64,000 bases of DNA from an uncultured Spirochaetota bacterium (GTDB lineage Bacteria; Spirochaetota; Brevinematia; Brevinematales; JAOACQ01). The stretch's first letter is position 1, and every line of letters begins with the position of its first letter. Where the stretch lies: assembly GCA_963783575.1 (NCBI GenBank), contig CAWAOD010000015.1, positions 96,001-160,000 on the forward strand, given 5' to 3'. Below the pieces are notes generated by a model. It saw nothing but the letters and a program-made list of their open reading frames with translations. It searched no databases and was not told the origin of the DNA. The position numbers and the translations under genes are program-made. Shown here piece after piece: positions 23,252 to 46,576 of the stretch.

Positions 23252-25084
23252 TCAAATATATTCCTTCGCTTTCCTCATTCTGGAAGCCAGGTCCTTTCCC
23301 GCCGGGCAGATATAACTGCAGCTTCCGCATAAAATGCAGTTATCTGCTAAATGCCGGGTAGTTCCGGATAAACTGCCGGAATCTACTAAGACGGCTATTT
23401 TATTAACTCTCAGACCCATCGGACAGTTTGAAATACACCGGCTGCAGTTCGAACATAGTTCAGATTCTTTGTATAAAGGATATCTGGATAAAGCTATAAA
23501 ATTTAAATTCTTGTCAACAGTTTCTTCTTCTTCAGCCCGGTGAGCCTGCATTATAACCCCGCCTGCAAATACAGGGTAATTTCCACCGGAAAATAATTGC
23601 CCGAATATATCCGTAATTTTTGATTTCAGTTTAACCCTGGCCACTTGATTCACTTTATTTATAAGATTTGCAGCTGTAATATACCTGCTGTCAGCCTTTT
23701 TATTCAGGTACACGGCTTCATAAACGGCAAAAACAGTCTGAATGTTTAAAATGAGAATCCCCGATTCTGACGGAGGCATTAAAGGCGGAGTATCGATTTT
23801 TAGAATTTTTTTTATAAGAATTTTTTCATAGCCTGCCGGGTAAAAATCCTTAACCTTAATTATTTCAATATGTTCTGGAAATTTTGTATCCACATCTTTC
23901 TTAACCGCTAAATAAATTTTGTTATAGGGAACGGCAATTTTTAATAGATCGATTCCAAGTGAGATTTCACGAATGAATTTCTCAATAATCCATCGGTCAT
24001 GGATTAAGCCCGGATCGCATTCCACGGCATTCACAATAAGGTATTTATTTATTTGACCCGAATACAGAACGCTTTTTATTTTATCATAAACTGAATAACC
24101 GCCCCCGCCCATTCCGAAAATATCCGCTTCTCTTATTTTTTCCAGAATGGAATCAATGGTAAGGCTTTGCGGAGGCTCATTTTCACTTTTTATTTCACCT
24201 GTCAGATCGACCAGCTCGGAGTTTTCGGAATATGGTATGATTTTTTTTATCCTTTTTGATAATGGAAGCCATATTCTTAATAAATAGGTGTTTCTATCAA
24301 TCAAAAATGATGCGGCATTAAAAATCAGCAACGCCATAGAAGTTACCCAAATCGGCTGAGTATAAAAAAGCGGTAAAAAACCGACAAGAAATCCGCCGGT
24401 AAAACCTGCTGCCGGCCTGGGAGTAGTAGAAACCGGATCTGTAATAATAAGGCTTCCCCAGAAAAAAACTCCGGAAGAAATAATACTTGTAAAATTTAAT
24501 GCATTCCGGAATAATAAAGCGGCGGTCATTCCTGCTATCAGTCCGAGACCCGCAAAAGGACGGAACATTATAAACGGTAAGGATAAAATAATGGCCGGTA
24601 TTATTAAAATCGAAGGGCTGATTATGGGGTAATTAATTTTAAATATTAATGATAAAAACAGAACTCCTATAATAGCAGGATTTGCCCAGTTTTTCCCGGT
24701 ACCTCCCCAGATATGCTTGCCGATGACCAGTGCGGTAACGATCTCCAAAAACTTTCCCCACAGGGGAACGCCGGGAGTCAAAACCTGCAGAATACCCATT
24801 GTAACCGCAGCAGAAACAGCGCAGACCGGCTTTTTAAACCTGATAAAATTTATAAGCGAATCTATTATCAGCGCAGAAACTAAAAGCATCATAAACCAGA
24901 TAAATTCAACCGGATTTTTTACCCAAACTGGCAGTTGATAAAGTATAAGCACTGCGAATAAGACTGCCTGAATGTGCTCATTCGACAGCTTTGATCGTAT
25001 CAGGGGAAAGTATTTTATTATCAGATTCCCGCGAAAAACCCATGCAGCCGGTGAAAACCCCCGCCCAGCAGCATCATCGGGCAA
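23252..25084 (-). CDS. Fusion of an RnfD/NqrB-like membrane domain and an RnfC-like FMN/2x[4Fe-4S] domain (true start uncertain, probably near or downstream of 25024)
   Basis: GKHIWGGTGKNWANPA and ITDPVSTTP (RnfD-like); GMGGGG, IVNAVECDP, YPAGYEK (RnfC-like); CSNCSRCISNCP and CILCGSCSYICP. Confidence 0.8.
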   Translation of the reverse strand: MPDDAAGRGFSPAAWVFRGNLIIKYFPLIRSKLSNEHIQAVLFAVLILYQLPVWVKNPVEFIWFMMLLVSALIIDSLINFIRFKKPVCAVSAAVTMGILQVLTPGVPLWGKFLEIVTALVIGKHIWGGTGKNWANPAIIGVLFLSLIFKINYPIISPSILIIPAIILSLPFIMFRPFAGLGLIAGMTAALLFRNALNFTSIISSGVFFWGSLIITDPVSTTPRPAAGFTGGFLVGFLPLFYTQPIWVTSMALLIFNAASFLIDRNTYLLRIWLPLSKRIKKIIPYSENSELVDLTGEIKSENEPPQSLTIDSILEKIREADIFGMGGGGYSVYDKIKSVLYSGQINKYLIVNAVECDPGLIHDRWIIEKFIREISLGIDLLKIAVPYNKIYLAVKKDVDTKFPEHIEIIKVKDFYPAGYEKILIKKILKIDTPPLMPPSESGILILNIQTVFAVYEAVYLNKKADSRYITAANLINKVNQVARVKLKSKITDIFGQLFSGGNYPVFAGGVIMQAHRAEEEETVDKNLNFIALSRYPLYKESELCSNCSRCISNCPMGLRVNKIAVLVDSGSLSGTTRHLADNCILCGSCSYICPAGKDLASRMRKAKEYI

Positions 25085-27849: not shown

Positions 27850-29105
27850 TCACCATTTGTTTGGTATTTTTCGAAATTCATTATATAAACTTATTAATTT
27901 TTGATATTCTATGCTCTTTATTTTAGGTGTTTTATTTGACCAGATCAAAATCATGATCCTTAAGTTCTAGAAGAAGGTTTTTTTCTTTACAATACTCATA
28001 TAAGGAACTTCCCGGATAAGGAGTAAAAAATGAAAGTGCAGGATATTCCAATTTCATATGTTTCATTAATTCAAATGTCGATATCGACTCTTCAATTGTT
28101 TCTTCTGGTAATCCAACCATAAACATACCCATTATTTCAATTCCTATTTCCTTTAGAATTGTATTTGATGTATATATATGTTCCAATGTGATTCCTTTGT
28201 TCAGAAAATTAAGTACACGCTGACTTCCGCTTTCAAACCCTATATGAACTGTTGAAAGACCTAATAAATGCATTTTCTTGAATAAATTCGGATTTTTACA
28301 AACAATATCCGCCCTAGTTTGACAAGCCCATTTTAAGGATAATCCGGCCTTTTCATATTCAAAACAGAACTCTTCGGCATAATGCATATTTTCTGTAAAA
28401 CAGTCATCATGAACGAAAAAACTATTTATTTTATAATTTTTTTTCAAATAATTAAGTTCTTCAATAACATTTTTTACGCTTCGTCTTCTTACAATCTTAC
28501 CGAATAAGATTTTTTCCGATGGCTGGCAGAAAGAACAGTTATATGTACATCCCCTTGATGAAATAATTGTGGCGAAAGGTGTTTTCAAATTTTTAAAATA
28601 AGGTAATTCTTTATTTTTAAAGAGCCCTCTGTCTGCGAATGGAAGTTCGTCAAGATTGGGTTTTTTCCCTATAATTACTTTTTCACGATGCTTTTTATTT
28701 TTAATATCTGTAATTAATTCAATTAATGATATTTCTCCCTCACCAATGATTAAATAATCGATTAGATTATTTGACTCAAAATCTTGTGGAGCAATACTCG
28801 GCATGAATTCCTCCTATGACGATTGAAACAAATGGCATAATTTCCTTTGCTATTTCAATACATTTTTGTGCAATTGATAAATCTATGGTAAGTGCTGTGA
28901 TTGCAATTATATCCGGTTTTATGCCGCGCAATTTGTTTTTATAATCTTTCCAATTTCTGCATGTCCGCATGTCAATTAATTCGGTTTGATAACCGGCTAT
29001 TTTACAACAGGAGCTTAATAATGATAACCCGTGATGCATCCATTTATATCGATTACCTTTTCTAAATGCATCCATGCAATCCGGGTAAATGAATAATATT
29101 TTCAT
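27850..29105 (-). CDS. Cobalamin-binding radical SAM protein with two apparent +1 frameshifts (~28800 and ~27941)
   Basis: MKILFIYP...IVIGGIH joins (P/A)SIAPQDF...GEGE; SRGCTYNCSFC; GFESGS. The alternative frame continues SNKTPKIKSIEYQ...W* to 27850 (1256-2 is divisible by 3). Confidence 0.82.
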
Positions 29106-29240
29106 AATCTTTCCTATAATACTAAGATTTTCATTTTTAAGTAACTGATAGAAAAAGATTATAATCAGTGGTGTATAAAAAATCAAAAAAACTCCGAATT
29201 ATCTATATTGCAATAAACACATTTTCTAGGTATTGAAATA

Positions 29241-33512: not shown

Positions 33513-34860
33513 ATGAAAAAACTGATGTTAATTCAACCGGCTATAAAACATCAATCAAAAGGATCTGCTAAATCAAAAGTCTGGGGAATGCCACCGCTTG
33601 CGCTGGCTTATGTTGCGGCCTATACACCTGGCAATTGGGATATCAGGATAATTGATGAGCTTATAGAGGAGATACCGTATGATGATAATCCTGATTTGGT
33701 TGGAATAAGTGTTTCTTTTACAACAAGCGCTCCCAGGGCATACCAGATCGCTGAAGAATTCAGAAAGAAAGGCATTCCCGTCATATTAGGAGGCATTCAT
33801 GTTTCCATGATACCTGATGAAGCGCTTAATTATGCGGATGCAATTGTCATAGGAGAGGCGGAATCGAATCTGGAAAACCGTTATCTCTGATTTTGAGGAA
33901 GGAAAATTAGGGAAAAAATATTTCGGTCAAAGGCTTCCTCTGGACAATCTCCCCCTTCCCAGAAGAGATTTGCTGTCTGATAAATATGAACTGGACATTA
34001 TTCAGACCACACGGGGATGTCCTTTTAACTGTGAATTCTGTTGTGTCACCGCATTCAACGGATCTTCCTACCGGCAGAGACCAGTTGAAGATGTTTTAAA
34101 TGAGATATCTCTTATCAAAACAAATGTATTCCATATCATCGATGATAATATTCTGGGGTTCGGCAAAGAGGCGGAACAGCGGGCTATCAGACTGTTTAAA
34201 GGAATGATCGATAGAAAATTCAATAAGTTCTGGAACTCGATGGCATCCGTTAACATTGCCGATAATGAAGAGGTGTTAAGATATGCTTTTAAAAGCGGAT
34301 GCCGCAGTTTATATATCGGCTTCGAATCCATCAATCCAGACAGTTTGAAGGAAATGAGAAAAGGAATAAACCTTAAAGCCGGGATATCAGGCTTCAAAAC
34401 TGCCATAAATAAAATTCATCGGCATGGCATCAGTATAAATGGAGGATTCATTATCGGTAATGATAATGATAATCCCAAAATATTCAGGGAACTGAATGAA
34501 TTCATGAAAGAAACGGATAATTTTGCCATAAACTTCCTGACGCCTCATCCGGGTACACGATTGTTTGACCGGTTAAAAAAAGAAGATCGTATTATTTATA
34601 ACCGTTATCCTAATGATTGGCAACGATATACTAACGAACAAATTGTCATAAAACCTAAAAATATGTCCGTTGATGATCTGTCCCACGGATATTTGTATCT
34701 TGTCAATAAAAGATTTTCCAGGAAAGCCATTTATTTACAGTGTTTGAAAACTTTAATCAGGACAAGAAATTTGAAATCAGCTTTATTTTCCTATTTTACA
34801 AACAAAAGATCATGGAAAGATCTTATACATGATCGAGATTTTGAGAATATCGGCAGGTAA
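33513..34860 (+). CDS. Cobalamin-binding radical SAM protein; one frameshift at 33867-33868
   Basis: PPLALAYVAA, LGGIHVS, GEAE. Removing one A gives ESIWKTVISDF...LPRRDLL, joining TRGCPFNCEFC and GFES (1347 nt). Confidence 0.88.
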
Positions 34861-34867
34861 AAATGAT

Positions 34868-36184
34868 ATGGACAAAGAAAAAAAATACTATCCGTTGACT
34901 AGTTATCAAAAAATTATATATTATGGAGAGATGTCGCTGCCGGGTATTCCAACCCAAAACTTTTTATGCAGCATGAAATTGGGCAGTGAAATAGATTTAT
35001 CAATTCTGGAAAAAGTAATTAATTTAATTATTTTAAAGAACGATAGCTTTCGTTTAAGATTTAAAACAGATAAAGGAATAAAGTATTTATTCAAGAAGTT
35101 GAATTTTTTTAAAAGATGCACCTATGTAAAGCAGTATGTTTCAGAATACGAGGAAAAAAAATTTGAATTCTATGAATTGAGTTCAGAATATGCCGAATGG
35201 GTCAAACTCCAATCAATTAAGTTGTTTGATCTTTATGATTCGGACTTATACTCTTTTATTTTTCTGAAATTAAATACCGGAGAATATGTTGTCTTTCTTC
35301 GCATTCATCACATAATAACCGACGGATGGTCATTAAATCTTGTAATCAGCCAGATAGGCGAATATTATACAAAAATAAAAAATGGATTACTCATTGATTT
35401 GCATCCAAATCCTTCTTATATTGATTTGATATTAAAAGAAGAAAAATATCAGAAAACAGATAAGTTTCGCAATGATAAGAAATTGTTATTTGAAAAATTT
35501 AAAAATGCCCCTGAATCTGCACTATTTAAAAAGAAAATGAATCATAGAGGTAATTGTAATTATAAGACATTTATATTATCCCCTGATATAACAAAGATAA
35601 TATATAAACTCTGTGAAAATGTATTCATATATCCTTTAATTTTATTTACAGCGGCTATAGTCCGTTTGATTAAAAGTAAAACCAATATTAATGATATTAT
35701 ATTGATAATGCTTTATCATAACAGGGTTAGTAAACAGGAAATGGAAACTACCGGCATGTATAGCAAAGCAATACCCATGCGTATCAAATTGGGAGAAAAA
35801 ATGAATTTAAAAATGCTTAGCAATAAAATTTTTGCAGAATATAAATTTTCTATAAATCATGGGCAAGAAGCGGCCATTATGAATTTATTAGAAAACGGCA
35901 ATAAATTCTATCGAAACGCTATCTTGATTTCAAGTGAAAAATATCCTTCGGATAATACAGGCATTGTTAAATCCATTGAATTTCATGACCTCGGTTATGT
36001 GTCCAATCCATTGATCTTTCAGATTAATGATTACAATCAGGCAGGATTCAAACTGAAATATGAGTATCAAACAAATTATTTTTCAGATATAGAAATTGAT
36101 GATTTACAAAGGGAGATAGAAAATATTATTATTCAATTTGGGAAAGGAGAATTGGATATTTCTAATCGCATTAATCAAATTTAA
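34868..36184 (+). CDS. Stand-alone NRPS-type condensation domain protein
   Basis: YYPLTSYQ, NDSFRLRF, intact HHIITDG motif; no A or T domain in the ORF. Confidence 0.85.
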   Translation: MDKEKKYYPLTSYQKIIYYGEMSLPGIPTQNFLCSMKLGSEIDLSILEKVINLIILKNDSFRLRFKTDKGIKYLFKKLNFFKRCTYVKQYVSEYEEKKFEFYELSSEYAEWVKLQSIKLFDLYDSDLYSFIFLKLNTGEYVVFLRIHHIITDGWSLNLVISQIGEYYTKIKNGLLIDLHPNPSYIDLILKEEKYQKTDKFRNDKKLLFEKFKNAPESALFKKKMNHRGNCNYKTFILSPDITKIIYKLCENVFIYPLILFTAAIVRLIKSKTNINDIILIMLYHNRVSKQEMETTGMYSKAIPMRIKLGEKMNLKMLSNKIFAEYKFSINHGQEAAIMNLLENGNKFYRNAILISSEKYPSDNTGIVKSIEFHDLGYVSNPLIFQINDYNQAGFKLKYEYQTNYFSDIEIDDLQREIENIIIQFGKGELDISNRINQI

Positions 36185-36263
36185 TAAACTTTAAATTAAT
36201 TGCCTTTTATCAAACTTTTTCAAGCAATTTATTAATAATTTCGGTTTTTGTAAAAAGTTTTTC

Positions 36264-36292
36264 TTGAATATTAGATATTAATGTGGTAAAAT
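36264..36292 (+). promoter_or_regulatory. Sigma70-type promoter upstream of the ACP operon
   Basis: TTGAAT, 17 bp, TAAAAT with extended TG, in a ~250-bp AT-rich gap. Confidence 0.5.
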
Positions 36293-36440
36293 TTTTTCTC
36301 GGTTATTATTTGTTGTTATACAAAAATCTTTTGATTTTTTTAATTAATATTAACCCAAATTTATATTAATTTGGAGATTAATTGGTGATTCAGATATACT
36401 CAAGGATTTGAAATTGGCTGCAAATATAAGAGGTATAGTT

Positions 36441-36692
36441 ATGGTTGAGAAGATCATCGATATTTTATGTGAGATAAAAGGTGATAACAGTCTGAAAGGG
36501 AACCTGAATGCAAGTTCCAGCATAATAAGCGATGTTGGCCTGGATTCTCTTCAAATGATTACTTTTATTCTTAGGCTGGAAGATGAGTTTAATGTTGTAT
36601 TAGACTTTAATGGACTTGATCTGGCAAATTTAAAGAGGATCGATAGTGTCTGTAAGATTATTGAAGAAGCTATGTCGGTTGGACAGGCATAA
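36441..36692 (+). CDS. Acyl/aminoacyl carrier protein
   Basis: Phosphopantetheine motif DVGLDSLQM...LEDEFNV; GAGGT RBS before ATG 36441. Confidence 0.9.
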   Translation: MVEKIIDILCEIKGDNSLKGNLNASSSIISDVGLDSLQMITFILRLEDEFNVVLDFNGLDLANLKRIDSVCKIIEEAMSVGQA

Positions 36693-38047
36693 TGGCAAGC
36701 ATGAATAGAAAACTGGTAATGGGTGTATTCGATTCCGAAAAATTCTGGCGTGATAATAATGCGGCGTCATTGCCAGCGATCTTTGACAGCAGCAGTGCTA
36801 ATATAATAAATGCAATGGATGAATTACTGTTTCCCTTTTGCGCTGAAAACGGCGTACTGATAACAGGAAAGAAGATGAACAACTTCCATAAGAATTATTT
36901 AAATCAAATAGGTTTTGCCTTTACCTGTAATTCAGAAAATCTGGATGACTATGCCGAGAATAGCGGCGGTGTTAAAAACAATATTTTTGAAGCGGCGGCC
37001 TTAAAAAGCAATTTCTCCAAAATAGAAAAACTTATCGATGCCGATACCTATCTCTCTCCATATGCAGTAATTCCCTATACTCTTGAGATGTGCTATACTC
37101 AAAAAATAAAATATTCCCTGCCTGAACTTAAGCATGTAAAAGCTGTAAATTCAAAAATATATTCAAACACATTAAAAGCAAAACTTGGGTTGAACTCTGT
37201 TGGAGAGGTTGTATATGACTGCGGACAGCTTGTCGGTAAGGGTCTTGAAATGCTTAAGAACGGCGCTTTTCTTATAAAAGACGAATATGGGGTGTCTGGT
37301 AAAGGTAATATCTTAATTACATCGGAAAAACTTTTATTAAGGATAGCCGGGTATCTTAAAAAGCAGGAAGACAGTCAAATGCATATCAGGTTTGTGCTGG
37401 AACCTCTTTTAGATAAACAGCTTGATTTTTCATGCAATATCATTTCAACTGCCGATGGAAATATCTATATTGACAGTGTTCAAAAGATAATAAACATCAA
37501 TTTTAATTATGCAGGTACTTGCAGTATTGGAGAGGAATTATACGGATTTTTAGAAGAAAAGGGCTACTTTAAAACGATGGAAAAAATAGCGGGAGAATTG
37601 TATAAAGACGGATATTTCGGAGAAATAGGCATTGATTCGATGATGCTCAAAGATGGAAATATAGTACCTATAATTGAGATAAATGCAAGAAAAACAATGG
37701 GGATGGTGCACCAACGTATTAATATTTATCTTAAAAATTTCGGTTTGGAAGGGCAATTGACTTTTTATTCCCTTGGTTATACCCATACGTTTAAATTTGA
37801 ACAACTTCTTTCAAAAATGAAGGAATATAAAATCCTGTTTGATCCCGAAGCGGAAAAAGGAATTATTCCCCTGTCAGCCAATACTTTACTGATAAATAGC
37901 TATGTCGCTGATAATAATACAGGCGGCCAGGAGATATTTAAGGGAAGGTTCTATTATTTTGCCGTGGCGAAAACAGAGGAAGAGAGAGCTGAACTGATTC
38001 TAAAAACATGCGAATTATTCAAATCTTCAGGATTTAAAATATATTGA
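36692..38047 (+). CDS. ATP-grasp ligase, translationally coupled to the ACP (BtrJ-like by inference)
   Basis: VNSKIYS, LIKDEYGVSGKG, LEPLL, GYFGEIGIDSM, IIEINAR. Confidence 0.8.
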   Translation: MASMNRKLVMGVFDSEKFWRDNNAASLPAIFDSSSANIINAMDELLFPFCAENGVLITGKKMNNFHKNYLNQIGFAFTCNSENLDDYAENSGGVKNNIFEAAALKSNFSKIEKLIDADTYLSPYAVIPYTLEMCYTQKIKYSLPELKHVKAVNSKIYSNTLKAKLGLNSVGEVVYDCGQLVGKGLEMLKNGAFLIKDEYGVSGKGNILITSEKLLLRIAGYLKKQEDSQMHIRFVLEPLLDKQLDFSCNIISTADGNIYIDSVQKIININFNYAGTCSIGEELYGFLEEKGYFKTMEKIAGELYKDGYFGEIGIDSMMLKDGNIVPIIEINARKTMGMVHQRINIYLKNFGLEGQLTFYSLGYTHTFKFEQLLSKMKEYKILFDPEAEKGIIPLSANTLLINSYVADNNTGGQEIFKGRFYYFAVAKTEEERAELILKTCELFKSSGFKIY

Positions 38048-38065
38048 AATCAAGGGAGAAATAAA

Positions 38066-39154
38066 ATGAAAGATCATACTGTTACTATATTAGCTTCAGG
38101 CGTGGCACTCGGGGTATATTTACCTGCATTAATACTGGAATATCAGCTGAAAAAAAGAGGGTTGAATACAGATATCGCGGTCATAGAAAATCTTGTCGAA
38201 GAGGAAAAGAAAAATAGAATTCTGGTCAATAAGAAGGCCTTTCATGAAAATTTCAGGCTGGCTTTGAAGGGAAGGAAGATGATGAAAGACATGTCGTCCA
38301 GCTTCGATAAAGCCTTGAAATCCGAATTGTTCGATACATGGAAAAAATCGGATAGAAGATATTTTATGACTTATTCGGGTTATTGGGTACCTATTCTGGA
38401 AGAATACAGAGAAATAAGCGGTATAAATATCAATGTTGACGTCATTAATATCGACGCCGATATCTGCCAATCGATGAGCCATTTTACCGACATAATATTC
38501 AGCAAATACAGACAAATCTGGCTGTGGAGCTGGAAAGACAGGCGGCTGGATTATGAAGTTCCGGTAACGGATCAAAAACCCGTAGAGTATTCAAAAAGGA
38601 ACGGCAGGCTGGTCATTCATGGCGGAGGATGGGGTATGGGTACGTATAAAATCAAAATATCCGAACTTGAAAGCAAAGGTTATAATCTTGATATAGTCGC
38701 TTATTACCCCGAAGAAATCGATTACGGAAATAAACGAAGGTATTTTATGATCGAGCCCGGTTGGTCGCCATGGATGAAAAACAAAAACGGCCGCCATGAA
38801 TTTCCGCCGATGTCGGAAATCAAGCAGGGCGAAAACCCTGTTTATAAAAACAAAGAATGCTATCACGAGCTGTTCGACACAATACGGGAGGCTGGAGCGA
38901 TCATAAGCAAGCCTGGCGGCAGCACATTGGCAGATTCGCTCGCTTCGGCAACGCCTCTTGTTACATTAGAACCGTTCGGCGAAGCTGAAGAAAAGAATTC
39001 CGGGATATGGGAATATCTCGGTTTTGGCATATCATATGAAAATTGGGAGAAATCGGGCTTTTCAGTGGATGTACTGGAAAAGCTTCATTTAAACCTCATC
39101 AACAAAGGCAAGACAATCGATTATCCTGAATTTTTCAGTAAAAATATTTCATAG
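38066..39154 (+). CDS. GT-B fold UDP-glycosyltransferase-like protein (GT28/MurG-like C-terminal motif)
   Basis: HGGGWGMG, IISKPGGSTL, EPFGEAEEKN. Confidence 0.7.
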   Translation: MKDHTVTILASGVALGVYLPALILEYQLKKRGLNTDIAVIENLVEEEKKNRILVNKKAFHENFRLALKGRKMMKDMSSSFDKALKSELFDTWKKSDRRYFMTYSGYWVPILEEYREISGININVDVINIDADICQSMSHFTDIIFSKYRQIWLWSWKDRRLDYEVPVTDQKPVEYSKRNGRLVIHGGGWGMGTYKIKISELESKGYNLDIVAYYPEEIDYGNKRRYFMIEPGWSPWMKNKNGRHEFPPMSEIKQGENPVYKNKECYHELFDTIREAGAIISKPGGSTLADSLASATPLVTLEPFGEAEEKNSGIWEYLGFGISYENWEKSGFSVDVLEKLHLNLINKGKTIDYPEFFSKNIS

Positions 39155-39193
39155 GCATTTATCCGGATTTGCAAAATAAGGGAGAAGCATAAG

Positions 39194-40366
39194 ATGCAGC
39201 CAAAAACTAAAGTTGAATTTGATGAGAAAACATTCGATCGAATAAAGAGAACCATCAGAAATATGTCGACGGCGTCGCGGGAAAGACAATCAAAGCCTGA
39301 TTTCGCAACAAGGCTCCCCGACGAAGTGGGCATTCAGCTAACCAACCGGTGCAATCTGAGATGCAAACATTGCTACCAGTGGAGCGATGAGGGGCATCAT
39401 AAGAATATGGATTTGAGCAAACAAAAAATGGACCTGGATTTTGGAATTATTGAAAAAATATTTTCTGAAACAAAGGATGTAAAATCAAATTTATATGTAT
39501 GGGGAGGGGAGCCTCTCTGTTATGAAAACTGGGATAGATTCTGCGACCTTCTGGCAAGAGACCCGAGATGGACCGTTCTTTGTACAAATGCCACAGGAAT
39601 TGAGGACAACCTTGATTCATTATTGAAAGTATCCGAAAATCTTGCGGCTTTGATAAGCCTGGACGGATTTGAAGAGGAGAACGACGCCGTCAGGGGGAAA
39701 GGCGTGTTTAAAAAAGTGATAAACGGAATCGACGCATTGCTTGATTGCAAGGGGAAGGGCACTTTCAAGGGTGAGGTTTCTGTCAACTGTGTAATTACCG
39801 ATAGTATGGTAGGCAAGCTTTATGACTTTTTAGAGTATTTTGAGGAAAAAGGGGTAAATACTGTATATTTCTGCTTCACTTGGTATATTCCGGAAAATAT
39901 TTGTTTGGAAATGGATAAATATTTTGAAGAAAAGTTCAATTGGCTGCCAGGCTATAATAAGAACAGGAAAAACAGTTGGCATTCTTATACATATAACCTA
40001 AATCATGGACTGATTGAAAAGCTTAAAAGGGACATGCAAAAGATAAACAGCAGGGAATGGAATATAAGGGTCAGGTATCAGCCTGCCCTGGAAATGGATG
40101 AAGTTGAGAGTTTCATAACCGGGGGTGGAAAGGCGATACAGCATAGAAAATTATGCCTTGCGGCGTCAAATCGTATGAATGTCAGTGCCGACGGCACGGT
40201 TACTGTCTGTAAAATGTTCCCTGAATTCATTGTCGGTAACCTGAATGAACGCAGTGTATATGAATTATGGAACAGTGAGGAATTTAAAAAAGCAAGATTG
40301 ATTATAAGCCAGGGTTTGATGCCGATATGCACGAAGTGCATACTTTTATACCTGCATGGAAGGTAA
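39194..40366 (+). CDS. Radical SAM protein with SPASM/twitch domain
   Basis: CNLRCKHC, WGGEPL, SLDG; C-terminal CLAA...DGTVTVC...CTKC. Confidence 0.9.
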   Translation: MQPKTKVEFDEKTFDRIKRTIRNMSTASRERQSKPDFATRLPDEVGIQLTNRCNLRCKHCYQWSDEGHHKNMDLSKQKMDLDFGIIEKIFSETKDVKSNLYVWGGEPLCYENWDRFCDLLARDPRWTVLCTNATGIEDNLDSLLKVSENLAALISLDGFEEENDAVRGKGVFKKVINGIDALLDCKGKGTFKGEVSVNCVITDSMVGKLYDFLEYFEEKGVNTVYFCFTWYIPENICLEMDKYFEEKFNWLPGYNKNRKNSWHSYTYNLNHGLIEKLKRDMQKINSREWNIRVRYQPALEMDEVESFITGGGKAIQHRKLCLAASNRMNVSADGTVTVCKMFPEFIVGNLNERSVYELWNSEEFKKARLIISQGLMPICTKCILLYLHGR

Positions 40367-40501: not shown

Positions 40502-42028
40502 ATGAAGAAAAAGAGTTTTCAGAGCTTCATGGTTTCGTATCCATTTATAATTTGGACAATCATCACTATTATTGCTTTTGTTTTTTTGTTCATCGGCATC
40601 AACCAAGAAAGCATTTGGACTGACGAGGCATTCACAGCTACGATAATTCAGCATAGTTTTACCGGAATCATTTATAATACTGGCGGAGATATGCATCCGC
40701 CACTGTATTATTTTCTTCTTAAATTGTTCACAATTATTTTCGGTACATCCGAGATTGCTCTTAGGTCTTTTTCAGTTATGGGAGCTGTCGCGACAATCTG
40801 GCTCGGTGCAGGTCCTATAAGAAGACTTTTCGGACTTAAAATAGCCCTTATCTTTACTGGATTCATAATTGTTTTACCAGTAACACTAGTGTATTCGCAT
40901 GAGGTTCGTATGTATTCATGGGCTGCTTTTTTCACACTTTCCGGCATTATATACGGTTATTCTTCGGTCATAACCAATAGAAAAAAAGACTGGGCCCTTT
41001 TTGCCGTTTTTACTCTTGCAGGAATGTATACACATAATTATTCTCTGTTAGCACTTTTTTTTGGGTTTGTTATCCTCTTTATATATATTCTTATAAAAGC
41101 GAAGGACAGGATATTGCCATACTTAGTAACCGCCGGATGCATATTTTTAATGTATCTACCCTGGTTTTTCGTATTATTGAATCAAACCGCCTCAGTTATT
41201 AAAGGTATCTGGATTCCTCCCGTCGGAATTCCGGATGTGCTGTATGCATTTATGGCACCCTTTGAAACCAAGTGGGAGTTCGGATTCTCTTTTATATTTA
41301 TGATATCCGCTTTTTTATTATGTTTATCCATAATCGCTTATGGTATCATAGAAAATATAAAGAGAAAAAATACAGAGAAAGCAAAGGCGACAATTTTTTT
41401 TATACTGATATATTTTCTTACTCTCTGTTTTGCAACGCTGTTTTCAATATTCATAGTTCCCATAATGTTTTACAGATATATGTCCATTTGTTCCGGATTG
41501 TTTCTATTGTCAGTTATTCTGGGCATTGATTCCCTGAAGCAGTTGAACGTCCAAACGGTTTTATGCATTATTCTTATCCTCCTCATCCTGCCGGTTGACA
41601 TATTAATTCAAACACAAAAGTTTAACGGACCGGCCCGGGAAATTGCCGAAGAAGTAAAGCAGAGGATGCGGCCGGATGACGCCTTGATTTATAATAGTTG
41701 TCATTCGGCCTTTCCTTTATGGTATTATATACCTAAAGCGACCCATGTCTTTCTTCTTCCCTCTAGCAATAGCCCCCCGGCTTTGGATCCGAAATTCTTT
41801 CAAGCGGATACGCTGGATATCACCGGTCTTTCCGAACTCATCGGTAAGAAAAAGAGGATATGGATTATCAACAGTATAAACAAATATAATAGCAGCGAAA
41901 GTCCCCGCATTAATCCCGATGTTCTTATACAGGCGGGTTACGAGAAAAAATACGTTATAAATGAATATGACTATCCGTTTTCATGGCTGAAGCTAAGCGG
42001 TGAGTATTTTGTTATGCCGGACAATTAA
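40502..42028 (+). CDS. GT-C fold membrane glycosyltransferase (GT39/PMT-like)
   Basis: SIWTDEAFT, DMHPPLYY, EVRMYS, many TM helices; AGGAGG RBS before ATG 40502. Confidence 0.85.
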   Translation: MKKKSFQSFMVSYPFIIWTIITIIAFVFLFIGINQESIWTDEAFTATIIQHSFTGIIYNTGGDMHPPLYYFLLKLFTIIFGTSEIALRSFSVMGAVATIWLGAGPIRRLFGLKIALIFTGFIIVLPVTLVYSHEVRMYSWAAFFTLSGIIYGYSSVITNRKKDWALFAVFTLAGMYTHNYSLLALFFGFVILFIYILIKAKDRILPYLVTAGCIFLMYLPWFFVLLNQTASVIKGIWIPPVGIPDVLYAFMAPFETKWEFGFSFIFMISAFLLCLSIIAYGIIENIKRKNTEKAKATIFFILIYFLTLCFATLFSIFIVPIMFYRYMSICSGLFLLSVILGIDSLKQLNVQTVLCIILILLILPVDILIQTQKFNGPAREIAEEVKQRMRPDDALIYNSCHSAFPLWYYIPKATHVFLLPSSNSPPALDPKFFQADTLDITGLSELIGKKKRIWIINSINKYNSSESPRINPDVLIQAGYEKKYVINEYDYPFSWLKLSGEYFVMPDN

Positions 42029-42105
42029 TGAAAATTGAAAACAATATAAATCGCCGTATTCAGTGGTTTAGGAGCAGCAATAAAATATTAGAGGAGGGAC
42101 AATCT

Positions 42106-43017
42106 ATGAACGATCCTGTGTATGATATCTGGCTTCATTGGATTGTAACATTACGCTGTAATCTGGATTGTAAATATTGTTTTTTTAATCCTGCTAAAAA
42201 AAAAGGCACCATACATGGCATAAAAATAGATATGGTGTTAAAAACACTCCGGGAAACAGGTAAAACATATAAAATATATTTTAGCGGCGGGGGAGAGCCT
42301 TTCCTGGTCCCGAATATCATTGATGCTTGCTTAGCATTATCCGGAGAGCATTATATTGCTTTTAATACCAATCTCATTTCAAGTCATATTAAAGAATTTT
42401 CAGAAAAAATAAGCCCTGAAAGAACCATTTTTATTCAGGCGGCATTTCACTATGAGCAGTTGAAAAAAAAGAACCTTGTAGAACTGTTTTTATCAAATTA
42501 CCAAATGCTTAAAGACAGGGGATTTAATGTTAATATTGTTATGGTAGCTTATCCGGAGCTTATGAGTTCTCTTGTTGAAATCTCTGATTTATTTCAATCC
42601 CGTAATCTTTCCTTTTCTTTTATTGAATTCATTGGAAATTATAATGGGAAGAAATACCCGAAAAGTTACACTATGGAAGAGCGGAAAATAATGAATCTTA
42701 GTGATGATTCACGGATTTATTTTCAAAAGAATAAAATCTGTAATGCGGGGTTTAATTGCGCTATGGTTTCTCCTTCCGGCAGTGTATGGCCATGTTCCAG
42801 TCTTGGTCCATCGCTTGGGAATGTCTACAATAAAATAAATTTCAATAAAAGCAATATACTCTGCCCCTTTCATTTCTGTTTATGCCCCATGAATGCTTAT
42901 GATGATTATCTATTTGAGAAAAGCATTAAGGAAGCTCGGTCAGAGCCCATAAAATACAATCAGTTATTTTGTAATCTTCGTAAGATAGGAACACGTTTCA
43001 ACATGCTGCCGAAATAA
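42106..43017 (+). CDS. Radical SAM protein with Cys-rich twitch-like C-terminus, tandem copy 1
   Basis: CNLDCKYC, GGGEPFL, CNAG...WPC...CPFHFCLCP; GAGGAGG RBS before 42106. Confidence 0.85.
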   Translation: MNDPVYDIWLHWIVTLRCNLDCKYCFFNPAKKKGTIHGIKIDMVLKTLRETGKTYKIYFSGGGEPFLVPNIIDACLALSGEHYIAFNTNLISSHIKEFSEKISPERTIFIQAAFHYEQLKKKNLVELFLSNYQMLKDRGFNVNIVMVAYPELMSSLVEISDLFQSRNLSFSFIEFIGNYNGKKYPKSYTMEERKIMNLSDDSRIYFQKNKICNAGFNCAMVSPSGSVWPCSSLGPSLGNVYNKINFNKSNILCPFHFCLCPMNAYDDYLFEKSIKEARSEPIKYNQLFCNLRKIGTRFNMLPK

Positions 43018-43054
43018 AAAACAAATGCCGAACGTTATGAGAGGTAATGATACT

Positions 43055-43960
43055 ATGTATGATATATGGCTCCATTGGTACGTAATAACTGACTGCTGCA
43101 ATCTGAAATGCAAATATTGCTTTTATGGTACCGCTAAAAAAAAGGGTCGGGTACAACCCATAAAAATTGAAATGCTGCTTAAAACGCTCCGGGCAACCGG
43201 TAAAACATTTAAAATATCTTTCACCGGGGGAGGAGAACCTTTCCTGGTGCCTAATATAGTTGAAGCTTGCGAAGCTTTATCAAGAGAGCATTATATCGCT
43301 TTCAATACCAATCTCACTCCCGGTAATATCAAAAATTTCGCAAAAAAGGTAAATCCTGAAAGAACAATTTTTATTGATGCGTCATTTCACTACGAGCAAT
43401 TAAAAAAAAGGAACCTGATACGGCAGTTTTTATCAAATTACCAAATACTCAAAGACAGAGGTTTTAATGTTATAATCAACATTGTGGCTTATCCGGAGGT
43501 CATGGATTATCTTGATGAAATCTCGGATTTATGCGCACGGCACCATCTGCCCTTCTTTTTTAATGAATTCACCGGAAAATATAAAGGAAAGAAATATCCT
43601 TTGGGCTACACTTCGGAAGAACGGATTAAATTGAATCTAAGTACTGATTCGCGAATTTTTTTCCAGAATAATAAAATCTGTAATGCAGGGTTTAACTGTG
43701 CCGTGGTATCACCTTCCGGCAGCATCTGGCCATGCAGCAGTCTTGGCCCGACACTTGGGAATATCTATCAAAAAATTAAATTCAATGAGAGTAATATACT
43801 CTGCCCTTTTCGTTTCTGTACATGTCCTATGAACATGTTTGACGGCTATCTATTTGAAAAAAGTAAAGAAATACAAACAAAGCCCATTAAATATAATCAG
43901 CTATCCTCTTTTTTTCATAAAATCCGAACACAAATGAACTTGATATCAAATAAAACATAA
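43055..43960 (+). CDS. Radical SAM protein, tandem copy 2
   Basis: CNLKCKYC, GGGEPFL, CNAG...WPC...CPFRFCTCP; colinear with copy 1. Confidence 0.85.
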   Translation: MYDIWLHWYVITDCCNLKCKYCFYGTAKKKGRVQPIKIEMLLKTLRATGKTFKISFTGGGEPFLVPNIVEACEALSREHYIAFNTNLTPGNIKNFAKKVNPERTIFIDASFHYEQLKKRNLIRQFLSNYQILKDRGFNVIINIVAYPEVMDYLDEISDLCARHHLPFFFNEFTGKYKGKKYPLGYTSEERIKLNLSTDSRIFFQNNKICNAGFNCAVVSPSGSIWPCSSLGPTLGNIYQKIKFNESNILCPFRFCTCPMNMFDGYLFEKSKEIQTKPIKYNQLSSFFHKIRTQMNLISNKT

Positions 43961-43969
43961 GAGGTTATT

Positions 43970-44953
43970 GTGAGTATTATTGAAATAGAGAATTTATCCA
44001 AGACCTTTCCCTATTATGAAAAGCAGCTAGGCTTCAGGAATTCAATTAAAAATTTATTTTACAGGAAAAAATTATATAAAGAGGCTGTGAAAAAGATTTC
44101 ATTTCAGATTGATGAAGGAGAAATTGTAGGATTTCTCGGGCCAAACGGAGCAGGAAAAACAACAACATTAAAAATGCTCTCAGGAATTCTGTTTCCAACA
44201 TCAGGTTCGATACTTGTTTCCGGATATATTCCTTGGGAAAGAAAAAAACAATATAAAATGCTAATATCCATAATAATGGGACAAAAAAGCCAGCTATGGT
44301 GGGATTTGCCTGCTATCGAATCCCTTTATCTTAATAAATGCATCTATGAAATGGATAATAAATGTTACAGGGTTTTTCTCGATGAATTAACCGACTTGCT
44401 TGATGTGAGACATCTATTGAATATCCAGGTAAGAAGGCTGTCCCTTGGTGAGAGAATGAAAATGGAACTGATCGCGTCATTGATACATAAACCAAAAATT
44501 CTATTTCTTGATGAACCTACGATAGGTCTTGATATAATTACTCAGAAGAAAATCAGGGAGTTTCTGAAATATTATAATGAACAGAATAAAACAACCGTAC
44601 TTCTGACCAGTCACTATATGAAAGATATCGTGGATTTGTGCAGGCGGTCGATCATAATTAATAACGGTGAGATAATTTTTGACGGAGATCTAAACAGGGT
44701 TAACGAATATTTCAGCGGGAGAAAATTAATTAAACTTCAACTTGGCAGAAATATCGAAGAAGGTGTTTTAAAGCAATTCGGACGGCTCAAGAAAATAGAG
44801 GGAATGACGGCTGTTTTTGAAGTTGATAAAAATGAAGTCGGCAAATTATCGGGCAAAATGATAGAATCCCTTCCTATAATCGATTATACAATCGAAGACA
44901 TACCGGTTGAAGAAGGTATAACAATTTTATATGAACAAGGGAAAAAGAGATGA
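43970..44953 (+). CDS. ABC exporter ATP-binding protein
   Basis: GPNGAGKT, LSLGERMK, FLDEPTIGLD. Confidence 0.93.
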   Translation: MSIIEIENLSKTFPYYEKQLGFRNSIKNLFYRKKLYKEAVKKISFQIDEGEIVGFLGPNGAGKTTTLKMLSGILFPTSGSILVSGYIPWERKKQYKMLISIIMGQKSQLWWDLPAIESLYLNKCIYEMDNKCYRVFLDELTDLLDVRHLLNIQVRRLSLGERMKMELIASLIHKPKILFLDEPTIGLDIITQKKIREFLKYYNEQNKTTVLLTSHYMKDIVDLCRRSIIINNGEIIFDGDLNRVNEYFSGRKLIKLQLGRNIEEGVLKQFGRLKKIEGMTAVFEVDKNEVGKLSGKMIESLPIIDYTIEDIPVEEGITILYEQGKKR

Positions 44954-45759
44954 TTTCTTTGGAAAAATATTATCGATCGTTTCTAATCGGCATTCAAAAC
45001 GCAATGGAATACCGGGCTAATTTTTTGATAAGCATCTTTTCTGCAATTGTCCCTATATTTATCCAGACATTCTTCTGGTTATCAATATATAGATCTTCGG
45101 AACATTCGGTCATTTTCGGGTATACATTCTCACAGATTCTTAACTATACTATACTTGCACAGCTTGTATCAAGGTATGTGAGAACGGGGTTCGAGTATGA
45201 GATTAATGAAGATATAAAAAACGGCGGATTAAATAAATTCATTATAAGACCTATCGGATATTTTACTTATAAATTCTTTTGCTTTATTGGATCCAAGACA
45301 GTTAATTTTCTGATAATATCCATTTTGATAACTGTTTCGATCTTTCTATTAACAGTTAATGTCGGTACGTCCATAACATTACTTTCAATTACATATTTTG
45401 TTTACTCATTGATACTCGCTCTTAGTCTGAATTTCCTGATATTCTTTTGCATCAGCACATTGTGTTTCTGGCTTTCGGAAATAGGCTTTCTATTTGAGGC
45501 CGTCAGGATAATAATAATAACATTAAGCGGCGGTATTTTTCCTCTTGATATCTTCGGCCTGAAAATAGTTAGGGTTTTAAGTTGTATGCCGTTCAAATAT
45601 ACAATAAGTTTTCCTGTTGAATTACTGAATAATAAAATTACAGGTTTTCAGGTATTACAGGGTTTTTCCATTCAAATACTCTGGATAATATTTTTTTTGA
45701 TATTATCAGTTATTTTGTGGAAAATCGGCACTAAAAAATATACAGCCGTTGGAGGATAA
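44950..45759 (+). CDS. ABC-2 family permease (DUF990-like)
   Basis: MEYRANF, IKNGGLNKFIIRP, six TM helices, terminal YTAVGG. Confidence 0.88.
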   Translation: MISLEKYYRSFLIGIQNAMEYRANFLISIFSAIVPIFIQTFFWLSIYRSSEHSVIFGYTFSQILNYTILAQLVSRYVRTGFEYEINEDIKNGGLNKFIIRPIGYFTYKFFCFIGSKTVNFLIISILITVSIFLLTVNVGTSITLLSITYFVYSLILALSLNFLIFFCISTLCFWLSEIGFLFEAVRIIIITLSGGIFPLDIFGLKIVRVLSCMPFKYTISFPVELLNNKITGFQVLQGFSIQILWIIFFLILSVILWKIGTKKYTAVGG

Positions 45760-45763
45760 GTAT

Positions 45764-46576
45764 ATGTTGAATGTTTTGAAAGAAATCAAAAAACATTTCA
45801 TCATTTATTGTCTTTTCGTAAAAAACAATGTAATGTCTCAAATGGAATACAGGGTTAATTTTTTTACCGGTATCGCAATGGAATTGGGATATCTGATGGT
45901 AAAGATATTGTATCCAATAGTGATTTATCAGTCCGGTACGAAAATAAACGGATTTTCTCCCGACGAACTTTTGATTTTTATCGGTACATTTGTAATAATT
46001 ACCGCATTTTATGCCGGTCTCTTTATGATGAATTTTTTTCATTTCAGAGTTCTTATAAGAGACGGACATTTAGATATAATGATAACAAAGCCGGTATCGC
46101 TGCAATTTATCTCTACTTTAAGACAGTCTGACATAGGACTCTTTTTTATAGATGCTGCAGGCGGGATCGTAATGGTTATTATCGGGTTATTAAGAACCGG
46201 AATCTCAATCTCATTTTTTGATATAATAGGATATGCCGTTTTTATCTCGGCCGGCGCTATTATCGGGTATTCGATTTTTTTAATTCCAGAAATTTTAAAT
46301 TTCTGGTTTGTTAACGCCGGAGCTATTGCTGAAACGGCTGATTCATTCTGGGATTTCAATCTGGTTCCAATGGTGATTTATGATAAGGTCATTCAGCAAA
46401 TCGGTGTATTTGTTCTGCCTCTATTTGTAATTACAAATTTCCCAACGTTATTTATACTAAAAAAAATGAGCTTAATTTACTTTATTTGGGGGTTGCTGGC
46501 CCCGATTATTTTTTTGACATTAAGCCGTCTATTCTGGAAAGTCGCAGTTAAGAATTATTCCAGCGCTAGCAGTTGA
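45764..46576 (+). CDS. ABC-2 family permease (DUF990-like)
   Basis: MEYRVNF, IRDGHLDIMITKP, terminal YSSASS. Confidence 0.88.
   Translation: MLNVLKEIKKHFIIYCLFVKNNVMSQMEYRVNFFTGIAMELGYLMVKILYPIVIYQSGTKINGFSPDELLIFIGTFVIITAFYAGLFMMNFFHFRVLIRDGHLDIMITKPVSLQFISTLRQSDIGLFFIDAAGGIVMVIIGLLRTGISISFFDIIGYAVFISAGAIIGYSIFLIPEILNFWFVNAGAIAETADSFWDFNLVPMVIYDKVIQQIGVFVLPLFVITNFPTLFILKKMSLIYFIWGLLAPIIFLTLSRLFWKVAVKNYSSASS

What the first reader, a model, noticed from the sequence alone, without database searches (positions are those of the whole stretch)
34868..40366. Adenylation-domain-free thiotemplate module: free C domain + ACP + ATP-grasp + GT-B + SPASM radical SAM
Seen: a condensation protein with intact HHxxxDG, followed by an ACP (GLDSL) translationally coupled to an ATP-grasp ligase (TAATG overlap). 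Known: in butirosin biosynthesis the ATP-grasp BtrJ loads glutamate on the ACP BtrI, and BtrH transfers the acyl chain to the aminoglycoside. Inference: this pair is BtrI/BtrJ-like (from gene order and recalled resemblance, unverified). No BtrK, BtrO, BtrH or BtrG-like gene is in the window, so the free C domain may act as the transferase onto a sugar or lipid acceptor. That would be an unusual hybrid logic.
Basis: partly seen in the sequence, partly recalled or inferred. Interest (0 to 1): 0.8.

Follow-up and report, generated by a model that had tools for sequence, protein, structure and literature searches.

The report
Carrier-based sugar cassette with stand-alone condensation
This is a copy of a widespread four-gene bacterial cassette (carrier protein, ATP-grasp ligase, glycosyltransferase-fold protein, radical SAM enzyme) that likely builds a sugar-bearing metabolite of unknown structure on the carrier, and here a stand-alone condensation gene lies next to it that may serve as the hand-off enzyme which most other copies appear to supply with a protease-like transferase.

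Summary
All five genes are real. The ACP, ATP-grasp, GT-B and radical SAM genes form a conserved cassette: in 99 related loci of 19 kb or more, ACP 99, GT 98, rSAM 98, ABC permease 66; the window's ABC exporter (43970-46576) belongs to it too. The ligase is a homologue, not an orthologue, of BtrJ and CtaD (27% local identity, catalytic residues kept, separate clade); the genome has no BtrK or BtrO. It fits the 'non-canonical thiotemplate' clusters mined by Dunbar 2020; no product was found in print. This scan found the same cassette before on other DNA (e1-984395). The C domain is not core (8 of 99 loci; BtrH-like transacylases 67 of 99), lies 256 bp from the ACP and abuts an upstream, frameshifted B12-rSAM gene. 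But free C genes sit inside the cassette operon in three other lineages, and C and BtrH-like genes tend to exclude each other (1 of 47 lineages has both; p=0.07, not significant). Best reading: glycosylation on the carrier, radical tailoring, C as swappable off-loader (about 0.35-0.4); the C being a bystander is nearly as likely. The rSAM is twitch-type, not full SPASM.

The parts
34868..36184 (+). Free-standing condensation domain protein, 438 aa, HHIITDG intact; accessory, membership of the cassette uncertain
   Evidence: Pfam PF00668 124 bits; two stand-alone relatives at 56-58% identity; 94 of the best 150 profile hits are N-terminal C domains of larger proteins, 4 stand-alone
36185..36440 (.). 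256-bp AT-rich (21% GC) gap between C and ACP; room for a separate promoter
   Evidence: two 9/12 promoter-like sites lie in it but the region's count (65) equals shuffles (59 +/- 8)
36441..36692 (+). Acyl/peptidyl carrier protein, 83 aa, GLDSL; core gene
   Evidence: an ACP in 99 of 99 large loci, within 300 bp upstream of the ligase in 73
36692..38047 (+). ATP-grasp ligase of the BtrJ/CtaD/PGM1-fold group, own GT-linked clade; core gene
38066..39154 (+). GT-B fold protein (GT28/GT1-like C-terminal nucleotide-sugar motif KPGG..D..P.G.E..N); no histidine in the N-terminal glycine loop; core gene
   Evidence: in 98 of 99 large loci, directly after the ligase in 92
39194..40366 (+). Radical SAM enzyme with one four-cysteine auxiliary cluster (twitch type) and a conserved N-terminal extension; core gene
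   Evidence: orthologue in 98 of 99 large loci
40502..42028 (+). GT-C-type membrane protein (PMT_2); local accessory gene
   Evidence: Pfam PF13231 30 bits; no blastp hit in 160 loci at E 1e-8
42028..43960 (+). Two tandem radical SAM genes (42028-43017, 43025-43960), 68% identical; local accessory genes
43970..46576 (+). ABC exporter (ATPase plus two ABC2_membrane_6 permeases) orthologous to the cassette's usual exporter
   Evidence: 66%, 49% and 49% identity to exporters in related loci, hits in 78, 78 and 73 of 160 loci

Best explanation
The ATP-grasp ligase likely loads an amino or other carboxylic acid on the carrier protein, the glycosyltransferase-fold protein likely adds a sugar to that unit while it is still tethered, the radical SAM enzyme would then rework the sugar, and the stand-alone condensation domain would hand the finished acyl unit to an outside amine or alcohol before the ABC transporter likely exports it. 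Shown: the genes, their folds, their conserved order and their co-occurrence. Inferred: loading chemistry (from BtrJ and CtaD); on-carrier glycosylation (from the fixed ACP-ligase-GT-rSAM set and the mitomycin/pactamycin precedent); the C domain's role (from its recurrence in cassettes that lack BtrH-like genes). The loaded acid is probably not simply BtrJ's glutamate, since clade-wide residues near the active site differ. My odds by step: loading on the ACP 0.85; GT and rSAM in the same pathway 0.9; GT acting on the tethered unit 0.5; this C serving the cassette 0.5.
For: Core set fixed in loci from at least five phyla by the record labels. ATP-grasp residues N153/K155, K196, GxSGKG, E237, D315, E329-N331-R333 shared with BtrJ; CtaD finds 79 of 81 clade members at E<1e-5 with database size set to 1e11; BtrJ and CtaD load acids on carrier proteins (PMC7183216, passages). 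17 of 47 lineages have neither a BtrH-like nor a C gene in the DNA held, so a core enzyme probably consumes the acyl-ACP, and the core encodes no other GT acceptor. ACP-bound glycosylation is known: MitB/MmcB (PMC8621148, abstract and headings), PtmJ/PtmI with the rSAM PtmC (PMC9092360, one passage). For the C: free C genes lie in the cassette operon in L001 (overlapping the rSAM stop; L001 holds the window's sister ligase, 66% identical), L167, and L186/L187/L195 (between ligase and GT); same-strand C-A-T modules follow the cassette in L037/L193, L044/L184, L178, L185/L191; C only 5, BtrH-like only 24, both 1 of 47 lineages; the window's C groups with the L001 and L037/L193 C domains (95% SH-aLRT); its class is mostly N-terminal C domains (94 of 150), which take donors from another protein; a free C as chain-terminating transferase is proposed for zeamine Zmn19 (PMC3547906, passages). 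An Sfp-type PPTase is in the genome.
Against: No activity was measured. The C is absent from 91 of 99 large loci and from the cassettes of two same-family genomes (G159, G160). The exclusion of C and BtrH-like genes is not significant (Fisher p 0.068 at 70% dereplication, 0.10 at 60%), and L167, L186, L187, L195 hold only 5-12 kb. In the window the C is cut off from the ACP by 256 bp, abuts the upstream gene and has lower GC (28%, GC3 28%) than ligase, GT and rSAM (35-41%). It is only 24% identical to the L001 C and on the other side of the cassette, so the two are not shown to be orthologues. Divergent free C-like genes occur away from any cassette in this genome (C13) and in G159/G160. The C tree is a quick tree, and five of the 11 rows of that clade were picked by similarity to the window's C. 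The off-loader profiles were built from these same loci, so other off-loader families may be missed.
Confidence: 0.38

Rival explanations
1. The four-gene cassette works without this C domain. The C is the last gene of the upstream GT2 / rSAM / GT2 / B12-rSAM run, or a stray acyltransferase, and its place beside the ACP is chance in an island of glyco-tailoring genes.
For: C start 7 bases after the upstream stop, 256-bp AT-rich gap downstream, GC like the upstream genes (28% against 29-31% for the two GT2 genes). 17 of 47 lineages have neither C nor BtrH-like genes; G159 and G160 carry the cassette with no hit to this C. Other free C-like genes lie elsewhere in these genomes.
Against: A C domain needs a carrier-bound or CoA donor, and the only carrier among the 28 ORFs scanned at 27-61.5 kb is this ACP. 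The sister cassette L001 also has a free C, coupled to its rSAM, and free C genes are rare genome-wide, so two neighbours by chance is unlikely.
Confidence: 0.35
2. Butirosin-style logic: GT and rSAM build a free modified sugar, and the C domain moves an unmodified aminoacyl group from the ACP onto that sugar or a glycolipid.
For: BtrH and CtaG-type enzymes transfer carrier-bound acyl groups (PMC7183216, PMC12865890, passages); BtrH-like genes in 67 of 99 loci; the rSAM shares its auxiliary-cluster region with BtrN (profile E 1e-9); membrane GT2 and GT-C genes flank the cassette.
Against: The core has no aminotransferase and rarely a deacetylase (PIG-L in 6 of 160 loci) to provide an amine, and no aglycone genes for the GT; lineages with no transferase still keep ACP and ligase. 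Similarity to BtrN is limited to about 60 residues (28%); the GT gave no blastp hit to any butirosin-cluster protein.
Confidence: 0.2
3. The pair is a true BtrI/BtrJ equivalent that makes a glutamate-derived side chain (GABA or AHBA) with partners elsewhere in the genome.
For: Homology to BtrJ; one BtrH_N gene on contig C6; the genome is only 89.85% complete.
Against: No BtrK orthologue (best hit 29%, LysA-like) and no BtrO-like hit; the ligase is on the far side of a 100% branch from BtrJ, CtaD and the decarboxylase-linked ligases; in 15 of 80 genome loci a second, decarboxylase-linked ligase with its own ACP sits beside this one, which implies a different job; the C6 BtrH_N gene has no cassette-type neighbours.
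Confidence: 0.05

Closest known systems
Non-canonical thiotemplate (NCT) clusters, glycosyltransferase-type family (Dunbar et al. 2020, PMC7183216)
   Same: CtaD-homologous ATP-grasp plus carrier protein, no A domain, a GT next door, often a CtaG/BtrH-like transacylase
   Different: The paper's section 10 names no product for this family and does not describe the fixed four-gene order, the twitch rSAM or a free C domain; its GT marker PF13528 was not hit by 0 of 37 members here; its Table S4 could not be read
Butirosin BtrI/BtrJ/BtrK/BtrO/BtrH
   Same: Homologous ligase with the same catalytic residues, stand-alone ACP, a twitch-type rSAM in the cluster
   Different: 18% global identity, separate clade, no decarboxylase, monooxygenase or aminoglycoside core genes; different GT
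Closthioamide CtaD/CtaE/CtaF/CtaG
   Same: A-domain-free loading of a carrier by a homologous ATP-grasp enzyme
   Different: No decarboxylase, thioamide synthetase or second carrier; GT and rSAM instead
Mitomycin MitE/MmcB/MitB and pactamycin PtmI/PtmJ/PtmC
   Same: Works-like model: carrier-bound unit glycosylated in place, radical SAM enzyme in the pathway
   Different: Loaded by CoA/AMP ligases, aryl starter; no sequence relation tested here
Free-standing C domains (zeamine Zmn19, vibriobactin VibH)
   Same: Single C protein with intact catalytic motif; VibH (1L5A) hit at E 2.4e-7 (name of 1L5A as VibH recalled, listed as amide synthase)
   Different: Those serve NRPS/PKS lines with A or AT domains; here the donor would come from an ATP-grasp-loaded carrier

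Membership tests
NCT cluster (Dunbar 2020) | ATP-grasp protein detectable as a CtaD homologue | tested here: met
   CtaD taken from G215 (neighbour matches PDB 9QUZ at E 7e-209); window ligase 26.5% over 230 aa, E 2.8e-9 at database size 1e11; profile E 1e-44
NCT cluster (Dunbar 2020) | Carrier protein in the neighbourhood | tested here: met
   TAATG-coupled ACP
NCT cluster, GT-type family | Glycosyltransferase of PF13528 | tested here: inconclusive
   0 of 37 members hit PF13528 at E<=0.05, 7 of 37 hit PF04101; Atlas look-alikes at 0.90-0.91 carry PF13528; GT-B fold met
NCT cluster (Dunbar 2020) | ATP-dependent loading of the holo-carrier | not testable with these tools
   needs intact-protein MS; catalytic residues kept
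Butirosin BtrI/BtrJ AHBA pathway | Ligase orthologous to BtrJ | tested here: not met
   BtrJ taken from G087 (its BtrK differs from PDB 2J66 at 4 of 428 positions); 18% global identity, 100% branch between them (quick tree, long branches flagged)
Butirosin BtrI/BtrJ AHBA pathway | BtrK decarboxylase and BtrO monooxygenase | tested here: not met
   none in the genome; genome 89.85% complete
Butirosin BtrI/BtrJ AHBA pathway | BtrH transacylase in the cluster | tested here: not met
   only BtrH_N gene is on contig C6
Active amide-forming C domain | Full-length domain with HHxxxDG | tested here: met
Active amide-forming C domain | Subtype (starter, LCL, DCL) by NaPDoS-type reference tree | not testable with these tools
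   no reference set held; 94 of 150 best hits are N-terminal C domains
SPASM radical SAM | Seven or eight cysteines for two auxiliary clusters | tested here: not met
   four conserved C-terminal cysteines in 27 orthologues; the cysteine counts that define SPASM and twitch are recalled

The most novel reading that the evidence does not exclude
A plug-in, A-domain-free module in which an ATP-grasp ligase, a histidine-less GT-B enzyme and a twitch radical SAM enzyme build a new glycosyl-acyl building block on one carrier, and which docks to unrelated pathways through swappable off-loaders (BtrH-like protease fold, KAS III-like, NRPS first C domain, or, as here, a free C domain). It is present in hundreds of genomes, including culturable Paenibacillus, and marks an undescribed class of glycosylated metabolites.
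Probability: 0.3. Interest if true: 0.8.

Novelty: new variant of a known kind. Interest (0 to 1): 0.5.

Why it matters
Only two ATP-grasp/carrier pathways are characterised (butirosin, closthioamide), and the authors who mined about 400 more called those two outliers. This cassette is one of the large families without a product: 472 matching stretches in species-representative genomes. Its fixed four-gene core gives a small, testable enzyme set, and a free C domain taking its donor from an ATP-grasp-loaded carrier would join two chemistries that the papers read here keep apart. If the C is a bystander, the window is simply one more copy of a family this scan has already noted.

Tried and rejected
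Complex prediction of GT with ACP: no answer, score 0.20 against a mark of 0.32; not used as evidence. Search of JGI metagenome contigs for relatives of the C: 568 pattern matches, none confirmed, so no gene context for its close relatives. Sequencing runs: one DNA holder with 8% of words, no RNA holder listed; its contigs are mostly about 150 bases and do not cover the C gene or the frameshift. Promoter and terminator scan at chance level (65 vs 59 +/- 8; 10 vs 8 +/- 3). Blasticidin-type reading (BlsD/BlsE, recalled) dropped: the rSAM profile hits BlsE only at E 0.0013 and no CGA-synthase model matched any of 37 GT members. No fusion of core genes with each other or with off-loaders in the ORF set. 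Pfam on 41 unassigned neighbours from loci lacking BtrH-like genes (38 of 107 candidate clusters' representatives or members, plus three NRPS genes) found no common off-loader; a DUF1796 papain-like gene is in the cyanobacterial and methanotroph loci. Paper searches for 8YND, for paenilamicin/PamI/BtrH and for 'acyl carrier protein-bound' glycosylation gave nothing usable. A look-up of earlier findings by sequence found none.
Full report
Observation. The five ORFs are present as described. The C protein (34868-36184) scores 124 bits on Pfam Condensation over nearly the whole model and has HHIITDG at 147-153. The ACP starts at 36441 behind a GAGGT site and its stop overlaps the ligase start (TAATG, 36690-36694). 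The ligase and the GT have no Pfam hit of their own, but their models are confident (pLDDT 93.8 and 92.2) and match PGM1/BesA-type ATP-grasp folds (8YND, 3WVR, 8YI6; TM 0.65-0.70) and GT1/GT28 GT-B folds (TM 0.5-0.6). The rSAM keeps four C-terminal cysteines in 27 orthologues, which is one auxiliary cluster, the twitch type (definition recalled). The C gene is separated from the ACP by 256 bp at 21% GC and starts 7 bases after the stop of a frameshifted B12-rSAM gene.

The core is a conserved cassette. A profile of 68 ligase homologues found 472 relatives among 505 pattern matches in species genomes and 166 among 513 in metagenomes; the best 80 of each were kept. A six-frame recount with profiles built from these loci gave, for all 160: GT 146, rSAM orthologue 124, ACP 150, ABC permease 78, BtrH-like 78, C 14, KAS III-like 13, BtrK 18; for the 99 loci of 19 kb or more (61 shorter ones left out): 98, 98, 99, 66, 67, 8, 12, 18. 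The GT follows the ligase within 300 bp in 92 of 99, an ACP precedes it in 73. Record labels span Bacillota, Spirochaetota, Cyanobacteriota, Pseudomonadota and Chloroflexota; Paenibacillus dominates, so counts are not independent. The window's ABC exporter at 43970-46576 is 66/49/49% identical to the exporters of these loci. Two genomes of the window's own family carry the cassette (3 of 43 genomes of the class, counting G000). This scan reported the same cassette in another genome (e1-984395); my counts were made before and independently of that note and agree with it.

Relation to BtrJ and CtaD. I fetched both reference clusters from genomes: G087, whose BtrK differs from PDB 2J66 at 4 of 428 positions, and G215, whose CtaG-position gene matches PDB 9QUZ. 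The window ligase is 27% identical to BtrJ over 228 aa, 18% globally, and 26.5% to CtaD over 230 aa. Nucleotide- and metal-binding residues are shared; several positions invariant in the window's clade differ (M42, N206, S247, Q264, N268, M336). In three quick trees the GT-linked clade is one side of a 100% branch, apart from BtrJ, CtaD and the decarboxylase-linked ligases (long-branch warnings apply). Fifteen of 80 genome loci hold both kinds side by side, each with its own partners (the decarboxylase is a BtrK orthologue, E 1e-121). The ACP is a weak match to BtrI. The genome (89.85% complete) has an Sfp-type and an AcpS-size PPTase, one unlinked BtrH_N gene, and no BtrK or BtrO. So it works like BtrI/BtrJ but is not that pathway.

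What is in print. Dunbar et al. 2020 (PMC7183216; passages and all of section 10 read, supplement not readable) mined 402 CtaD homologue nodes, 95% with a carrier protein, about 45% of those with a CtaG-like transacylase, grouped most into KAS III-type and GT-type families, and noted NRPS/PKS genes near about a third. CtaD detects 79 of 81 members of the window's clade at E<1e-5 with the database size set to 1e11, so these loci very likely fall in that set; the paper's GT marker PF13528 was not confirmed (0 of 37). Nine library searches found no paper giving a product or enzymology for the GT/rSAM type; the library lacks most subscription journals. Also seen: PMC11350588, PMC3547906, PMC12865890, PMC9092360 (passages only) and PMC8621148 (abstract and headings).

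The C domain. Against a core role: it is in 8 of 99 large loci, whereas four BtrH-like families are in 67 (three of them assigned by profile-profile match over 280-300 columns at 75-98% probability, and by their place next to BtrK/BtrO-like genes); the same-family genomes G159 and G160 have the cassette without a hit to it; its position and GC tie it to the upstream genes; divergent free C-like genes occur elsewhere in these genomes. For a role: of the 14 loci with a C, five have it free-standing in the cassette operon, in three lineages: L001 (sister ligase; C overlaps the rSAM stop; NHVISDG), L167, and L186/L187/L195 (between ligase and GT; L195 cut by the contig end). Seven more have same-strand NRPS-type C domains downstream (L044 cut at the locus edge) and two (L139, L176, near-copies) an opposite-strand one. 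By lineage (47 at 70% identity): BtrH-like only 24, C only 5, both 1, neither 17; one-sided Fisher p 0.068; at 60%, p 0.10. The window's C has two close stand-alone relatives (56-58%) of unknown context, is 24% identical to the L001 C and 28% to the L037/L193 C, and groups with them at 95% in a quick tree. Of the best 150 profile hits, 94 are N-terminal C domains of larger proteins, 4 stand-alone, 52 further in. I put the odds that this C serves the cassette near even.

Mechanism. Loading of an acid on the ACP follows from BtrJ and CtaD. Because 17 of 47 lineages show no transacylase yet keep ACP, ligase, GT and rSAM, and the core supplies no other acceptor, the GT most likely acts on the tethered unit, as MitB and PtmJ do; the rSAM would then rework the sugar, as proposed but unproven for PtmC. 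The GT family has F/V/A/T followed by an invariant Tyr where GT28 enzymes have the catalytic His of the glycine loop (that motif is recalled and the register was not checked on structures), which would suit an amine acceptor. The variable gene (BtrH-like, KAS III-like, NRPS C, free C) would off-load the product. All of this is inference; the one complex prediction gave no answer.

Verdict. A real cluster, a new variant of a known but uncharacterised kind. The A-domain-free logic is published and the cassette was seen before in this scan; the free C as a swappable off-loader is the new, still uncertain part. Interest 0.5.

Noticed in passing
window 33513-34860 (+) and 27932-29186 (-): Two B12-binding radical SAM genes are each split by a frameshift between the B12 and rSAM domains; pseudogenes or assembly indels. 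The one run laid did not cover the breaks.
   Followed up: partly
window 40502-43960: A GT-C-type membrane protein and two tandem rSAM genes (68% identical) are inserted between the core and its exporter; none has a blastp hit in the 160 related loci.
   Followed up: partly
window 39194-39330: The rSAM has a conserved, basic N-terminal extension of about 45 residues (Q2, P3, D10, K18) and an extra invariant Cys130; a possible docking site for the acidic ACP.
   Followed up: no
L107:159-2622: A ligase closer to BtrJ (38%) than to the window's clade sits directly before a member of the same GT family (46%), so the GT pairs with two ligase clades.
   Followed up: partly
L024, L030, L036, L038, L041-L043, L047, L059, L062, L071, L073, L080, L026, L056: These Paenibacillus loci carry the cassette together with a second ligase, BtrK orthologue, ACP and mostly a BtrH_N gene: candidates for a glycoside with a GABA-type side chain.
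   Followed up: partly
L083, L084, L087: BtrK-like, BtrO-like monooxygenase, ligase and BtrH-like genes in a row; possible AHBA modules outside butirosin (only 1.5 kb flanks seen).
   Followed up: no
L109-L113: Five of 136 genomes hold butirosin-type ligase-decarboxylase-monooxygenase genes; L110 and L112 are diverged from the reference type.
   Followed up: partly
L132 (genome of L001): Upstream of the sister cassette: FabF, KAS III-like, B12-rSAM, acyltransferase, 3-hydroxyacyl-CoA dehydrogenase, enoyl-CoA hydratase, three GT4-like genes and a PPTase, an acyl source that the window lacks.
   Followed up: partly
G000 contigs C4, C10, C11, C13: Large PKS/NRPS arrays (35 PP-binding matches) and a second free C-like gene at C13 near 88.9 kb (445 aa, SHIISDG).
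   Followed up: no
window 23252-25084: RnfD/RnfC-like fusion ORF, already covered by another report (e1-9868285).
   Followed up: no
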